A DNA stretch of 64,000 nt from an uncultured archaeon (GTDB taxonomy: Archaea > Asgardarchaeota > Lokiarchaeia > Sigyniarchaeales > SOKP01). The notes below the pieces were generated by a model that saw nothing but the letters and a program-made list of their open reading frames with translations, did no database searches and had not been told where the DNA came from. Position 1 is the first letter of the stretch, and every line of letters begins with the position of its first letter. This document shows, piece after piece, positions 38,388 through 58,261 of this stretch. The stretch covers positions 56,312-120,311 of the forward strand of contig CAZALK010000017.1 in assembly GCA_964486045.1 (NCBI GenBank), in the 5' to 3' direction. Both the position numbers and the translations under genes were made by a program.

Positions 38388-39278
38388 CTATGACTTTTTA
38401 TCAGGAATTTCTTTTATCGCTTCCCTTATAATTGCTAATATTTTTTCCCTATACATTGGTTCAATGGAGATCATACCATGTGTTTTTATAACTCGCTTCT
38501 CACTTGATAGAATTCTTTCGCAAAACTCAGGTGTAAGCCGATTGGGTAAATCTTGTTTATTAGCAATGCCAATTATGAATTTATCCTGAAAAAACTTATC
38601 CAATATATCATGAATAATTTCTTTTGATCCATTGATATTTTCAAAAGTTGAATCAGTAACCAAGATCGTAATGTCTGTACCCTCAAGTAGACTTCTCCAT
38701 AAAGACCTAAATTGTGCCTGACCTGCAAAATCCCACAGCGTTAATCTCCTGCCTAATTCATCTCCTTCGTATTCAGCAATATCAGCCGTAATTGTGGGGA
38801 CATATTCAAGGTCTACATCCTTTCCGCAGATAAGGCGAGTTAATGTAGTTTTACCTACACCTCCGAAACCGATAATGGATATTTTAATCGCTCCCAAAAT
38901 AATGTTATCTAACTCTTTCTCAAATTCGAGAAAAATAGAGCGATTTCCTGCCCATTTGTTTGATTTGATAAGTTTTCCATATTTTTCTAAAAATTTTGAC
39001 CTGATACTTAGGATTTTTGAGTTTACTAATGCATCATCATCTTCTAAGTCACTGCATGCTACGATGATTATTGTATCAATTATTGTATAAAAATATTTAA
39101 AATCTTCCGTTTGAGTGCTTTTAATATCACTTTGGCTGATTTCTTTCATAAATCCTGAGAATGCGCTTAGAAAACCAGCTAATAAATCTCTATCTACCTC
39201 GGATGTTCCGTAGTTTCTAAAAAGTAATGATTTCCCGTCTTTAGTAAGAATATTTACGTATTGAATCAACTTTTCCAC
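38388..39278 (-). CDS. Longin/roadblock-fused Arf/Rag-like small GTPase (Asgard type)
   Basis: N-terminal DGKSLL..DLLAGFLSAFSGFMKE; GFGGVGKT, PTI, WDFAGQ, NKQD. Confidence 0.85.
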   Translation of the reverse strand: MEKLIQYVNILTKDGKSLLFRNYGTSEVDRDLLAGFLSAFSGFMKEISQSDIKSTQTEDFKYFYTIIDTIIIVACSDLEDDDALVNSKILSIRSKFLEKYGKLIKSNKWAGNRSIFLEFEKELDNIILGAIKISIIGFGGVGKTTLTRLICGKDVDLEYVPTITADIAEYEGDELGRRLTLWDFAGQAQFRSLWRSLLEGTDITILVTDSTFENINGSKEIIHDILDKFFQDKFIIGIANKQDLPNRLTPEFCERILSSEKRVIKTHGMISIEPMYREKILAIIREAIKEIPDKKS

Positions 39279-39442: not shown

Positions 39443-40045
39443 ATGATTAATAAGGAAAATGAAGAGATACCTGATTTCATCAAAGAAACTAGTGAAACAA
39501 TTGAAAAATTTGCAAATATACTCGAAAAATTCGGACTTGATATAATAACTAAAATTGGACAAACAAACTTTAAAATCAACATTCTAACAGATAAAATTGA
39601 CGAATTAAGTAAGGCAACAATAGATGTTAAAGCACTATTACCACAATTGACAAATGTTATTGAAAACCAAAAAATTTTAGAGGAAGAACTTGATTTAATT
39701 AGAACTCTCATTCAAAGATCTGAAATAACAATTCATTCAATAGAAGCTGAACGGGAAGCTGTAGAAAGAGATGTATCTGCTACTGATAAAAAACAGGCGA
39801 TTATTGATCAATTCAAAAGGTTAGAGAAATATATTGAAGAAAATGATGATCCACTCCCAGTAATAGAAGATTTAGATAAACTTAAAGAGGATATTTTTAT
39901 ATTCACCGGGGGACATAGAATCCTCCGGGAAATAGGGCTGTTCAGCAGTAAGCTAAGTGGTATGGAATCCCTAAATGAAGGAATAAAAGAGGTTCTTAAA
40001 GAAAAAATCATATTTTGGATAAACAAACTTACTGTTAAAGGTTAA
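39443..40045 (+). CDS. Coiled-coil plus helical-bundle hypothetical protein
   Basis: 200-aa ORF with heptad-like pattern, between two GTPase genes. Confidence 0.65.
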   Translation: MINKENEEIPDFIKETSETIEKFANILEKFGLDIITKIGQTNFKINILTDKIDELSKATIDVKALLPQLTNVIENQKILEEELDLIRTLIQRSEITIHSIEAEREAVERDVSATDKKQAIIDQFKRLEKYIEENDDPLPVIEDLDKLKEDIFIFTGGHRILREIGLFSSKLSGMESLNEGIKEVLKEKIIFWINKLTVKG

Positions 40046-40066
40046 AAATATAGATTAAAATTATTA

Positions 40067-40678
40067 TTAATCTTGTAATTTAGAAAGAAGCGTCAGCTCC
40101 GCGATTTTGTGGAAAATGCTAGAAACATTTTCACCGGTCAATGCCGATGTCTCAAAAAGAGGGGCATTTAATTTTTGGGATAAATGTTCTGCCATAGGTA
40201 ATATAATCTTTTTCTCATCCGTCAAATCTATTTTATTTCCTATCAAAACTCGTGGAATTCCACTCAATCCATACTTTACAGAGGTGCTATACCAATTATT
40301 TACATTAGAAAATGAGCTAGAACGCGTTGTATCATAAACCAATATCATTCCATCTGCTCCGTTGAAGTATGGACGATGTAACATGTAAAATTGAGGCTGT
40401 CCAGCTATATCCCAAATCATCAAGGAGACTTCGGTTTCCTTACCCATGTCATTATTAACCATAACTTTCTCTTTAGTGATATTCACACCAACGGTAGGGA
40501 TATATTCAAATTGAAACTTTTCAGCACTGAAGTTCTTGAGTAAGGATGACTTCCCTACAGCGGGGTCTCCGATTACGATGATTGTTTTCTAGATTTGATA
40601 AATTCAAATATACTTGAAAATCATCTCGGTCCGCTCGTGAAATATTAGATCTTCATCAGAATTATTATTTTGGGTCAT
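40067..40678 (-). CDS. Rab-like small GTPase, split by a 30-nt BHB intron: join(40614..40678,40067..40583), 193 aa
   Basis: Spliced: MTQNNNSDEDLIFHERTEMIFK|IIVIGDPAVGKS...YIPTVG...WDIAGQ...NKID...TSAL. The track ORF 40067..40486 lacks G1/G2. Confidence 0.88.
40584..40613 (-). other. Putative bulge-helix-bulge (tRNA-type) mRNA intron, 30 nt
   Basis: GAUGAU-UUUC-AA^G-UAUAUUUGA-auuua-UCAAAUCUA-GAAA-AC^A-AUCAUC; contains in-frame TGA and TAG. Confidence 0.85.
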
Positions 40679-40753
40679 AAAGTATTGACACTTATTTGAT
40701 TATTTTCAATTTTTAATTAAATAAATAATGAAATTCCGATATAAAAATGTTAA

Positions 40754-41299
40754 TCATTCGTTTTTAAATTGAAATTGTTTTGAGATTTTAAATTTTGAAG
40801 TTTTACTTTCTTCGCGGGAGATGAAGTAAATTTTATTAAGGAGAAATTTGATTTCTTCCCATTTTGCTTGTAAATCAGTTATTATCTTTTGTAATTTTTT
40901 CTTTCCTTTGATTTGACCGGCACTAAGATGTGGTTTGAATCCATTTTTATACTGATTCACGTCATTACAATCAGGGACGATGTTAAGGATTTCTTCTTGA
41001 AGTTCTATAATTGAGTTATTCGGTATTGGATTTATCCAGAGGGTAAAATTTTGATGTGTGTGCTTAAAAAAACTAAAATTCTTAAGTAAAACCTCAAAGG
41101 GCTTAAATTTTTTACACGTTTCTGAAAAATATTTCCTAATATCTTCATATTGATTTCTAGGTCTAAATGGATATAACAACGTAATATGCGGCATCCATTT
41201 ATTTATGTTACGGTCAAAAACTTTACGAATTTCTTGAATTGATGCCCATTTTTCTTTTGGTGGGATTATTACAACCGCAGAAGAATAAACTTTACCCAT
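40754..41299 (-). CDS. 2H phosphoesterase (2'-5' RNA ligase / 2',3'-cyclic phosphodiesterase family)
   Basis: Two HxT/S motifs: PHITL and PHLSA. Confidence 0.85.
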   Translation of the reverse strand: MGKVYSSAVVIIPPKEKWASIQEIRKVFDRNINKWMPHITLLYPFRPRNQYEDIRKYFSETCKKFKPFEVLLKNFSFFKHTHQNFTLWINPIPNNSIIELQEEILNIVPDCNDVNQYKNGFKPHLSAGQIKGKKKLQKIITDLQAKWEEIKFLLNKIYFISREESKTSKFKISKQFQFKNE

Positions 41300-56546: not shown

Positions 56547-58261
56547 TTGAAGGTGAAAATTATCGAGCTCGAAAAACCAGGCAAAAAAGGATTTGAAATC
56601 GCTGAGGAAATGGAGCGTAGAAAGTCCACCGAGGAGAAACTCCAAAAAGGGTTGAAATACGAGAAACGACATCAAGATTGGACCTATAAACTTATGAAAT
56701 TCAATCCTATCGATCCATTGAATGATTTATATCGTTTTATCGTTAAGCGATTAGACTTAAAGCAAATAGAAGGCCGGCTTCAATGGTGGAGTGCCTATTA
56801 CTCCTGGCTCAGTTAGAGCAGAGTGGGCAAATCTACATCAGATGGGCGGCACGTATTTTCTGGAACTTTAAGATAGAATACCCTAAAGGAAATATGTTTC
56901 CAGAATGGGGTCCAGGAATCCTTGTAGGCTCACATGAGAGCCATTTGGACCCGTTCTTCTACGGATCGGCTTGTCAAAGACGTATCCGCTACATGAGTAA
57001 GCTTGATAATTTTAAGACACCAATTGTAAAAACTCTCTTTAATAATCTCGGAGCTTTCAAAGTTGATCGTGAAAATCCCGAACGAGGGTGGCAAAAAGCA
57101 AAAGAAATATTGTTAGGCGGCGAATGTATAGGAATATTTCCAGAGGGTACACGTTCTAAGGATGGAACCATTGGAGAATTTAAGACAGGAGCGGTAAGAC
57201 TGGCAGTTGAGATGCAGGTTCCTATTATTCCCATGGCAGTTATCGGTTCGAGGAATGCATTACCTAAAGGTAATTTAGTAATGAAACCGACCCAAGTAAA
57301 AGTACGTGTTGGTGATCCTATTTCTTATTCTGATTATGATATCAATTCTGTTTCTTATAATGATATTAAACGGTTAACTGATGAATTAAGGAATAATGTC
57401 TGGGAATTACGTGAGGGAGTTTATGGTAAAGAAGAGGATAAAGAACTTTCAATCGGCTCACCTGAAGAATTTCCAAAAGAATCCAAATTTAATATCATGC
57501 GTTATTTGAAAGATCAAGCTATAGGTGCTGTAACACTCATTGATGATATCTGGTATGGGCTTTTAAGAAGTCTAGAAGAGTTTGGAGCACGCGAAATATT
57601 ACAAAAACCTATGCAGGCGTTATCAGGGGAAGTGGTTTGTGGTTGGTCAGATCTCATGATGCCATATAAAGTTATAAATTTTAGAAAATATATCCCTCAA
57701 GAAGGCGCAGCTCTTATATGTCCAAGTCATAATTCTGAATGGGACGTACTTTTACTGGCAGCAAGCATAATCCATCACCCACCAAGACGCGTTGCGTACC
57801 AAATGGCAAAGCAATCACTTTTTAAGATTCCTCTCGTAAACGCTTGGGTAAGAAATCATCATGCTTTTCCATTAAAACGAGGGATGCATGATGTAGGTTC
57901 ATTTAATTACGCGAGGGAACTTCTTGAGCAAGGGAAGATAGTTATTACTTATCCAGAGGGTACTACTAATACAGGGAATGGTCAATTATTAGAAGGACAT
58001 ACTGGCCCAATGCGCTTGGCAATCCAGGCACAGGTGCCTATTATTCCTCTAGGCATAACGGGAAGCGAGAACATATACGCCAAACACGCAAAAATGCTCA
58101 CTTTTTATAAAGGGTGTGTCTTAAAAGCTGGGGAACCGTTTTTGGAGCATCAACAATATTGGGGCAAACGAGTGCCTGATTATGATGAACTTAAGAGATT
58201 GACAGTTAATATGATGAGTCGGATAAGAAAATTATTATTGTATGATACACCGGATGCCTAA
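56547..58261 (+). CDS. Tandem two-domain PlsC-type lysophospholipid acyltransferase, probably join(56547..56798,56831..58261), ~560 aa
   Basis: SHESHLD/FPEGTRS and SHNSEWD/YPEGT; track ORFs 56547..56816 and 56783..58261 join after removal of a BHB-bounded insert. Confidence 0.75.
56799..56830 (+). other. Putative BHB/BHL-type mRNA intron, 32 nt (register uncertain)
   Basis: GCCU/GGGC central helix, AUU and AAA bulges, ACUC/GAGU and GCUC/GAGC inner stems, outer UGGUG.AG/CU.CAUCA. Confidence 0.6.

What the first reader, a model, noticed from the sequence alone, without database searches (positions are those of the whole stretch)
40577..40625. Canonical bulge-helix-bulge intron interrupting a Rab-like GTPase mRNA just before the P-loop
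Seen: the minus strand reads ATG ACC CAA...ATG ATT TTC AA|G TAT ATT TGA ATT TAT CAA ATC TAG AAA AC|A ATC ATC GTA ATC GGA GAC CCC GCT GTA GGG AAG. A 30-nt insert (40584-40613) with two in-frame stops splits the beta1 strand FK|IIVIG. The RNA folds as outer helix GAUGAU/AUCAUC, 4-bp central helix UUUC/GAAA, 3-nt bulges AAG and ACA on opposite strands, and inner hairpin UAUAUUUGA/UCAAAUCUA (one mismatch). Established: archaeal EndA cuts after the 2nd nucleotide of each bulge and RtcB ligates; BHB-type mRNA introns are mainly known from crenarchaeal cbf5. Cutting at exactly those positions gives TTC AAA ATC ATC and a 193-aa GTPase with G1-G5 intact; unspliced RNA encodes only a 24-aa peptide. Inference: this is a spliced mRNA intron in a eukaryotic-signature gene, possibly an on/off switch analogous to HAC1/XBP1 splicing.
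Basis: partly seen in the sequence, partly recalled or inferred. Interest (0 to 1): 0.97.

Follow-up and report, generated by a model that had tools for sequence, protein, structure and literature searches.

The report
tRNA-type mini-intron splitting Asgard Rab-like GTPase
A 30-base insert shaped like the introns that archaea cut out of tRNAs interrupts a well-conserved Rab-like GTPase gene of an Asgard archaeon, so its messenger RNA almost certainly has to be spliced before the protein can be made. Published work documents this for only one other archaeal coding sequence (cbf5).

Summary
On the minus strand a 30-nt insert (40613..40584) with in-frame TGA and TAG sits between K22 and I23 of a Ras/Rab-family GTPase. 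It can fold as a strict bulge-helix-bulge (BHB) motif. Cutting at the BHB positions gives a 193-aa protein. Uninterrupted orthologs (95% identical, 193 aa) read ...TEMIFK|IIVIGDPAVGK across exactly that junction.

Three more distinct homologous inserts lie at the same site, on four contigs from independent metagenomes. One is 31 nt and frameshifting, and they carry compensatory changes in the central and inner helices. The intron-bearing genes are under strong purifying selection: synonymous sites are saturated and dN/dS is about 0.03-0.06.

Other species carry 30-nt BHB inserts at two other sites of the same gene. The genome encodes two EndA-domain proteins and RtcB. A second gene (thiolase-like) has a comparatively verified 30-nt BHB intron.

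Pseudogene, assembly artefact, readthrough and a repeated-element insertion are rejected. No RNA data could be obtained, so splicing is inferred. The HAC1/XBP1-like "switch" idea has no support.

I found no published report for Asgard protein-coding genes. Earlier findings of this scan describe similar mini-introns in other Asgard genomes.

The parts
40614..40678 (-). Exon 1: ATG plus 21 codons and the first two bases (AA) of the Lys22 codon. It encodes MTQNNNSDEDLIFHERTEMIF(K).
   Evidence: The N-terminal peptide is conserved in uninterrupted orthologs and in the other intron-bearing alleles.
40584..40613 (-). 30-nt BHB mini-intron: G, then a 9-bp hairpin with a 5-nt loop, then GAAA, then AC. 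It carries in-frame TGA and TAG.
   Evidence: It appears as a clean 30-nt gap against the intronless relative L046. It is single-copy in the genome.
40067..40583 (-). Exon 2: the third base of the Lys22 codon, 171 codons (IIVIGDPAVGKSS...LLSKLQD) and the stop. G1-G5 motifs are intact.
   Evidence: Pfam Ras PF00071, E = 5.8e-43, starting at profile position 2.
40620..40625 (-). Outer helix, 5' strand (GAUGAU, exon 1).
   Evidence: pairs 13-17 with 56-60 are invariant in 4 sequences.
40616..40619 (-). Central 4-bp helix, 5' strand (UUUC, exon 1).
   Evidence: The C-G pair becomes U-A in L035, where exon TTC->TTT goes with intron GAAA->AAAA.
40613..40615 (-). 5' bulge AAG. The predicted cut is after the second A (between 40614 and 40613).
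   Evidence: The cut position follows the established EndA rule (knowledge) and restores the ortholog sequence.
40590..40612 (-). Inner hairpin UAUAUUUGA / AUUUA / UCAAAUCUA, with one U.C mismatch.
   Evidence: The mismatch is an A-U pair in L031, L035 and L036. One pair shows U-A, U-G and G-U.
40586..40589 (-). Central helix, 3' strand (GAAA, intron).
40583..40585 (-). 3' bulge ACA. The predicted cut is after C (between 40584 and 40583).
   Evidence: The bulge reads UUA, AUA and AUA in the other alleles; the last A is kept.
40577..40582 (-). Outer helix, 3' strand (AUCAUC, the Ile23-Ile24 codons of exon 2).
   Evidence: Ile23 is ATC in 4 of 4 intron alleles and in 5 of 33 intronless ones.

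Best explanation
The 30 nt at 40613..40584 are an archaeal bulge-helix-bulge (BHB) intron inside the coding sequence of a Rab-like small GTPase of an Asgard archaeon. Homologs of this gene are labelled Promethearchaeota or Lokiarchaeota. The genome is 5.2 Mb with 31% G+C.

In the transcript, exon 1 and exon 2 pair with each other (outer helix). Exon 1 also pairs with the 3' end of the intron (4-bp central helix). The rest of the intron forms a hairpin. This leaves two 3-nt bulges on opposite strands.

The cell's tRNA-splicing endonuclease cuts after the second base of each bulge. In this genome it is very probably an (alpha-beta)2 EndA made from the two EndA-domain genes. RtcB then joins the exons to give ...UUC AA|A AUC..., and the 30-nt intron is released, probably as a circle. 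Only the spliced mRNA encodes the 193-aa GTPase; unspliced RNA gives a 24-aa peptide.

Splicing is most likely constitutive and the intron selectively near-neutral. The intron is one of a population of such mini-introns in Asgard protein genes that are gained and lost. Shown here: the sequence anatomy, the ortholog junction, covariation, selection and the presence of the enzymes. Inferred: cleavage, ligation, the exact cut positions and the circular intron.
For: 1. Junction. Uninterrupted 193-aa orthologs (94-95% identical) read MTQNNNSDEDLVFHERTEMIFK|IIVIGDPAVGKSS, which is exactly the predicted spliced product. The Pfam Ras profile starts at position 2 at the first exon-2 residue.

2. Same-site homologs. 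Homologous inserts sit at the same site in contigs from other metagenomes: L031 (31 nt), L035 (30 nt), and L036 = L037 (30 nt). The 31-nt one shifts the frame, so only removal at the BHB cut sites restores the protein.

3. Structure conservation. 93.5% of cells are paired, against 28-53% when the partners are slid. There are two pairs with changes on both sides (26 of 500 shuffles reach this). One is in the central helix, where a synonymous exon change TTC->TTT is matched by intron GAAA->AAAA.

4. Selection. Among intron-bearing genes pS is 0.63-0.78 (saturated) but pN is 0.06-0.11, so dN/dS is about 0.03-0.06, the same as for intronless orthologs. Exon 1 is conserved too.

5. Real DNA. Contigs from two samples span the insert without an indel. 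Intronless relatives align with a clean 30- or 31-nt gap.

6. Other sites. The same ortholog carries 30-nt stop-containing inserts with BHB geometry at two other sites in five other species.

7. Enzymes. The genome has two roughly 200-aa EndA-domain genes and one RtcB. Asgard archaea are reported to have (alpha-beta)2 EndA with the broad-specificity loop (PMC5829648).

8. Second case in the genome. A thiolase-like gene has a 30-nt BHB insert. Its halves abut in the Pfam profile, and orthologs are uninterrupted across the junction.

9. Chance. A BHB of this quality occurs about 1e-5 per position at this length.
Against: - There is no RNA-level evidence: no spliced read, circular intron or peptide.
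- The MFE fold is not unusually stable (z = -1.46), and it prefers a register shifted by one base at the A-run.
- Covariation rests on only four distinct sequences.
- L036 has an A.A mismatch in the central helix. The site-c introns of L032 and L033 have only 3 of 4 central pairs. The enzyme would therefore have to accept relaxed motifs.
- Genome-wide, BHB-like motifs are mostly chance, and my ORF-joining screen was not enriched over random (8 observed, 8.3 expected). A 'widespread system' in this genome is not shown statistically.
Confidence: 0.88

Rival explanations
1. The intron is spliced by EndA and RtcB, but the splicing is regulated. It would act as an on/off switch for GTPase production, analogous to HAC1/XBP1 unconventional splicing.
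For: Unspliced RNA yields only a 24-aa peptide, so splicing efficiency necessarily gates protein output. RtcB is also the XBP1 ligase in metazoans (knowledge). The intron sequence is conserved far above synonymous sites.
Against: Intron conservation is explained by the BHB requirement alone. Relatives 93-96% identical in protein, checked at DNA level, lack the intron, and at least four gain or loss events are needed on the tree. Other species carry introns at different sites of the same gene. This looks like neutral or selfish turnover, not a conserved regulatory device. No IRE1 RNase domain was found, but that search had no positive control. The RNA motif is BHB, not twin 7-nt loops.
Confidence: 0.07
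2. Programmed translational bypassing: the ribosome hops over the hairpin-plus-stop insert, as in phage T4 gene 60. There is no RNA splicing.
For: A stop codon and a hairpin follow closely after a Lys codon, and a Lys codon (AAA) lies near the 3' end of the insert.
Against: Landing on that AAA would add residues (FK-T-IIV) that no ortholog has. The site-b and site-c inserts have no matched take-off and landing codons that would restore the conserved ...AGQPQF... or ...VGVNIT... sequences. The compensatory pair between exon 1 and the intron 3' end, and the exon-exon helix, are BHB features with no role in hopping.
Confidence: 0.02
3. The gene is inactivated by a small insertion (a pseudogene or dying allele), or exon 2 is expressed alone from a non-canonical start. 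The BHB shape would be fortuitous.
For: Gene callers see only truncated ORFs: 139 aa in this window and 158 aa for P0109. Intronless alleles exist in close relatives.
Against: Four diverged lineages keep the insert while both exons stay intact, with dN/dS about 0.03-0.06 and saturated synonymous sites. There is no ATG, GTG or TTG before the P-loop. In L031 the nearest usable start lies after the P-loop. The chance of a BHB at the exact junction is about 1e-5, and it recurs in independent inserts.
Confidence: 0.02
4. Assembly or sequencing artefact, or a repeated mobile element (MITE-like palindrome) inserted in the gene.
For: The insert is short, AT-rich and palindromic.
Against: Two samples' contigs carry it without an indel. 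Independent metagenomes carry homologous inserts. The 30-mer has no other copy in the genome.
Confidence: 0.01

Closest known systems
BHB intron in the cbf5 (pseudouridine synthase) pre-mRNA of Crenarchaeota (Watanabe 2002; Yoshinari 2006; Yokobori 2009, PMC2738675)
   Same: A short intron inside a protein-coding sequence, bounded by a bulge-helix-bulge motif. It occurs in lineages with a hetero-oligomeric, broad-specificity EndA. The cbf5 intron is also lost in some lineages.
   Different: - Different host gene: a Rab-like GTPase, a eukaryotic-signature protein.
- Different phylum: Asgard.
- The same gene carries introns at three different sites in different species.
- Presence and absence vary among relatives 93-96% identical in protein.
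- cbf5 splicing was shown at the RNA level; here it is inferred.
Archaeal tRNA and rRNA BHB introns. Asgard tRNA genes are heavily interrupted (bioRxiv 10.64898/2026.10.13.758758).
   Same: Same motif (3-nt bulges, 4-bp helix), same predicted enzymes, and a similar length range. The preprint reports repeated gains at sites able to form a BHB. The exon codons here (E-M-I and I-I) are naturally complementary.
   Different: The host is an mRNA. Splicing must restore a reading frame, and it competes with translation.
BHB intron in the 5' UTR of Haloferax volcanii HVO_1309 (PMC7714728)
   Same: An EndA substrate within an mRNA, confirmed there by circRNA-seq and in vitro.
   Different: That intron lies in the untranslated leader and does not interrupt the coding sequence.
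HAC1/XBP1 unconventional splicing (IRE1 plus tRNA ligase or RtcB)
   Same: Protein-enzyme, spliceosome-independent mRNA splicing. Exon ligation by a tRNA ligase. A short intron whose removal changes the protein made.
   Different: The endonuclease is IRE1, which recognises twin stem-loops, not EndA on a BHB. That system is stress-regulated; there is no evidence of regulation here.

Membership tests
Archaeal BHB (EndA-type) intron | Two 3-nt bulges on opposite strands, separated by a 4-bp helix | tested here: met
   UUUC/GAAA central helix with bulges AAG and ACA. The same geometry is found in L031 and L035. L036 has one central mismatch.
Archaeal BHB (EndA-type) intron | Flanking helices on both sides (strict hBHBh') | tested here: met
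   Outer helix of 6 bp, plus CCGA/UCGG. Inner helix of 9 bp with one mismatch.
Archaeal BHB (EndA-type) intron | Cutting after the second bulge base on both sides restores the functional sequence | tested here: met
   The spliced product equals the uninterrupted orthologs across the junction. The 31-nt allele regains its frame only this way.
Archaeal BHB (EndA-type) intron | Structure maintained in evolution (covariation) | tested here: met
   93.5% of cells paired against 28-53% when slid. Two compensatory pairs. Only four distinct sequences.
Archaeal BHB (EndA-type) intron | Splicing endonuclease and RtcB ligase encoded by the organism | tested here: met
   Two PF01974 genes (102 and 67 bits) and one PF01139 gene (557 bits).
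Archaeal BHB (EndA-type) intron | Cleavage and ligation observed in RNA (spliced junction, circular intron) | not testable with these tools
   No RNA run was listed for this DNA. The only runs that could be laid were DNA contigs.
Ras/Rab small GTPase family | G1-G5 motifs and a match to the family profile | tested here: met
   PF00071, E = 5.8e-43 over profile positions 2-158. GDPAVGKS, T in PTVGV, DIAGQ, NKID and ETSA are present.
IRE1-type (HAC1/XBP1) unconventional splicing | IRE1 kinase/RNase, with twin stem-loops carrying 7-nt loops at the splice sites | tested here: not met
   The splice sites lie in 3-nt bulges of a BHB. PF06479 was not found in the 99%-complete genome, but that search had no positive control.
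Programmed translational bypass (T4 gene 60 type) | Matched take-off and landing codons that give the conserved protein | tested here: not met
   No codon pair reproduces FK|II, GV|NI or GQ|PQ without adding or deleting residues.

The most novel reading that the evidence does not exclude
Promethearchaeia-type Asgard archaea carry a dynamic population of tRNA-type mini-introns of about 30 nt in ordinary protein-coding genes. One gene can hold such introns at several alternative sites in different species. The introns are gained and lost between relatives only 4-7% diverged in protein sequence. Protein-enzymatic mRNA splicing by EndA and RtcB would then be a routine step of gene expression in the closest prokaryotic relatives of eukaryotes, and standard annotation systematically miscalls the affected genes.
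Probability: 0.6. Interest if true: 0.9.

Novelty: new member of a known kind. Interest (0 to 1): 0.8.

Why it matters
According to the papers I could search, only one archaeal coding sequence (cbf5) is documented to need EndA-type splicing (PMC7714728, PMC2738675).

Here a eukaryotic-signature gene of an Asgard archaeon needs it. The same gene shows three intron positions across species, with presence and absence varying among close relatives.

If RNA data confirm this, three things follow:
- Interrupted genes and obligatory mRNA splicing exist in the lineage closest to eukaryotes.
- There is a tractable system for asking how such introns arise and disappear, through paired intron-plus and intron-minus alleles.
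- Asgard gene catalogues, including counts of small GTPases, contain truncated or split calls that are really spliced genes.

Tried and rejected
- **RNA evidence.** No RNA holder was listed for the gene. The only runs that could be laid were DNA contigs.
- **Folding energy.** It is not informative (z = -1.46).
- **Genome-wide BHB scan.** Counts are flat across lengths and decay as chance predicts. The ORF-joining filter gave 714 observed against about 552 expected, and 8 against 8.3 for the stricter set. The scan cannot by itself count mRNA introns; individual candidates need ortholog checks.
- **Repeated element.** Rejected. There is only the self-hit in the window and in the genome. A fuzzy-regex search timed out first.
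- **Rfam.** No family match in 40000-41000.
- **The 2'-5' RNA ligase/LigT-like gene directly upstream.** It looked suggestive, but the PUA - LigT-like - GTPase order is the same in intronless loci. I take it as coincidence.
- **Intron-associated homing endonuclease** (a lead from earlier scan notes). Neighbours are a LigT-like gene, a PUA gene and a 200-aa protein without a Pfam match. Synteny is unchanged without the intron.
- **IRE1 domain search.** No hit, but the control genomes cannot ring either.
- **P0048.** The DNA of this 98%-identical called-intronless relative of L036 could not be fetched.
- **Literature.** Searches found no report of BHB introns in Asgard protein-coding genes.

Full report
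**What is there.**
The minus strand of 40067-40678 holds a small-GTPase gene broken by 30 nt.
- Exon 1 (40678..40614) encodes MTQNNNSDEDLIFHERTEMIF plus the first two bases of a Lys codon.
- The insert (40613..40584) carries in-frame TGA and TAG.
- Exon 2 (40583..40067) continues with IIVIGDPAVGKSS... and has all G motifs. It matches Pfam Ras at E = 5.8e-43, starting at profile position 2.
- Unspliced, the first ORF is a 24-aa peptide, and no ATG, GTG or TTG lies between the last stop and the P-loop.

The window is part of a 5.18-Mb, 31% G+C, 99%-complete genome. Homologs of this gene are labelled Promethearchaeota, Lokiarchaeota and other Asgard names.

**The RNA shape.**
- outer helix GAUGAU/AUCAUC, extended by CCGA/UCGG
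- 4-bp central helix UUUC/GAAA
- 3-nt bulges AAG and ACA on opposite strands
- a 9-bp inner hairpin with one U.C mismatch and a 5-nt loop

This is the strand geometry of the canonical tRNA 37/38 intron: helix, central helix, bulge on each strand read 5' to 3' (established knowledge).

The fold is not unusually stable (z = -1.46). RNAfold prefers a register shifted by one base in the A-run. So the argument rests on geometry and comparison, not energy.

In this genome a relaxed BHB turns up about 4.4e-5 per position and length. The full-hairpin 30-nt form turns up about 1e-5 per position.

**The junction test.**
A search with exon 2 returned 979 relatives. The best are almost all 191-193 aa. The closest (94-95% identical) read MTQNNNSDEDLVFHERTEMIFK|IIVIGDPAVGKSS. 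That is exactly exon 1 joined to exon 2 at the BHB cut sites, giving 193 aa.

DNA of two intronless relatives (L046, L043) aligns to intron-bearing genes at about 86.5% identity. Each shows a clean 30- or 31-nt gap at TTCAA|...|AATCAT.

**The same intron elsewhere.**
A truncated gene call (P0109) led to a contig with a 31-nt insert at the same site (L031). A gapped pattern scan of metagenome contigs, which did not constrain the insert sequence, found three more contigs. These are L035 and the identical pair L036/L037 from two different projects.

The four distinct inserts are clearly homologous. The 31-nt one shifts the frame, so readthrough cannot rescue it. Removal at the BHB positions restores FK|IIVIGD.

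On their alignment 93.5% of cells pair, against 28-53% when the partners are slid. Two pairs changed on both sides (26 of 500 shuffles reach this):
- C-G to U-A in the central helix. There a synonymous exon change TTC->TTT is matched by GAAA->AAAA in the intron.
- U-A to G-U in the inner helix.

The window's U.C mismatch is an A-U pair in the other three. Four sequences is a small sample.

**Alive or dead?**
Between intron-bearing genes, synonymous sites are saturated (pS 0.63-0.78). Non-synonymous change is 0.06-0.11, so dN/dS is about 0.03-0.06 where it can be computed. That is the same as among intronless orthologs. Exon 1 is conserved as well.

The genes have therefore been kept as full-length coding sequences for a long time with the insert in place. 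This excludes a pseudogene and a stand-alone exon 2.

Contigs from two samples span the region without an indel. The 30-mer has no second copy in the genome. That excludes an assembly artefact and a repeated-element insertion.

**More sites in the same gene.**
In 154 genomes of the order, 113 have the ortholog and six contain stops inside it. Besides this genome:
- G053 has a 30-nt insert between TVGV and NITKE (switch I).
- G088, G048, G055 and G138 (another genus) have 30-nt inserts between AGQ and PQF (switch II).

Removing 30 nt restores the conserved sequence in every case. The quality of the BHB varies:
- G088 is a strict BHB.
- G138 and G053 have a perfect central helix but weaker outer helices.
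- G048 and G055 have 3 of 4 central pairs.

On a tree of 151 orthologs the four site-a rows are scattered, each next to called-intronless rows at 93-98% identity. Intronless DNA was confirmed for L043 and L046 only. Well-supported branches force at least four gain or loss events. The tree used the quick method with 193 columns, so its resolution is limited.

**The machinery.**
The genome has two EndA-domain genes of about 200 aa. One keeps the Tyr/His/Lys pattern. The other lacks the His, as expected for a structural beta subunit; this is my reading. It also has one RtcB.

Asgard archaea are reported to have (alpha-beta)2 EndA with the loop that confers broad substrate range. Pre-mRNA splicing of cbf5 was linked to hetero-oligomeric EndA (PMC5829648).

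ARAGORN finds only 31 tRNA genes, 20 of them with intron calls. This fits the report that Asgard tRNA genes are heavily interrupted.

**Other mRNA introns in this genome.**
The BHB scan plus an ORF-joining filter is not enriched overall, but it picked out two further 30-nt cases.
- The thiolase-like gene on contig C3 is convincing. Its halves match Thiolase_N profile positions 1-89 and 94-258. Orthologs at 92-93% identity have open frames of 392-409 aa against 302 here, and read ENYCASGM|DAFRNA straight through.
- An AIR-synthase-related gene on C5 is weaker.

**Mechanism and its limits.**
The best explanation is constitutive EndA/RtcB splicing of the pre-mRNA (confidence 0.88).
- The cut positions follow the EndA rule. 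Cutting one base further 3' on both sides would give the same protein, so sequence alone cannot fix them.
- A regulatory switch is possible in principle but unsupported. Patchy presence among close relatives and alternative sites in other species look like turnover of near-neutral introns.
- Translational bypassing fails because no take-off and landing pair reproduces the conserved residues at any of the three sites.

**Novelty.**
Papers in the searchable library report BHB introns in coding sequence only for cbf5, plus one 5'-UTR case in Haloferax. Nothing was found for Asgard protein genes.

Earlier findings of this scan describe similar mini-introns in other Asgard genomes: EF-2, RNase Z, hypD, gatE, a mutase subunit and another GTPase. 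This is therefore a further, well-supported member of an emerging class rather than a one-off.

Its particular value is threefold: three alternative intron sites in one ortholog, paired intron-plus and intron-minus alleles, and an exon-intron compensatory change.

Noticed in passing
L041:476-505 (G000:C3:186175-186204, + strand): A second 30-nt BHB mini-intron in the same genome. It splits a thiolase-like gene right after the catalytic-Cys motif (ENYCASGM|DAFRNA). The Pfam profile coordinates abut across it, and orthologs are uninterrupted.
   Followed up: yes
L042:672-701 (G000:C5:195271-195300, + strand): A candidate third 30-nt BHB intron joining 166- and 300-codon frames of an AIR-synthase-related protein. 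Exon 2 starts at AIRS profile position 43, but exon 1 alone has no significant Pfam hit.
   Followed up: partly
window 56799-56830 (+ strand): A 32-nt insert between two frames of an acyltransferase-like gene. It has a 4/4 central helix, imperfect outer and inner helices, and the joined reading ...LQWWSAY|IYIRWAARIF....
   Followed up: partly
L022:1635-1698, L026:1808-1871, L032:730-793, L033:721-784, L034:712-775: In other species the same GTPase ortholog carries 30-nt stop-containing BHB inserts at two other sites. One is in switch I (TVGV|NITKE). The other is in switch II (AGQ|PQF), in four species of two genera.
   Followed up: yes
window 40754-41299 (- strand): A 2'-5' RNA ligase/LigT-like 2H phosphoesterase gene lies directly upstream of the intron-bearing GTPase. 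The PUA - LigT-like - GTPase order is conserved in intronless loci too, so a link to splicing is unlikely.
   Followed up: partly
window 38388-39278 (- strand): A 296-aa protein with an N-terminal extension and a C-terminal Arf/Roc/Ras-type GTPase domain lies two genes downstream of the Rab-like gene. This small-GTPase pair is conserved in related contigs.
   Followed up: no
G000 whole genome: ARAGORN finds only 31 tRNA genes in a 99%-complete 5.2-Mb genome, 20 of them with intron calls, several dubious. Many tRNA genes are probably missed because of multiple or non-canonical introns.
   Followed up: no
window 40577-40625 and orthologous sites in L003-L046: The exon codons around site a (E-M-I and I-I) are intrinsically complementary. 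Most intronless orthologs could already form 5-6 of the 6 outer-helix pairs. The site looks pre-adapted for a BHB.
   Followed up: partly
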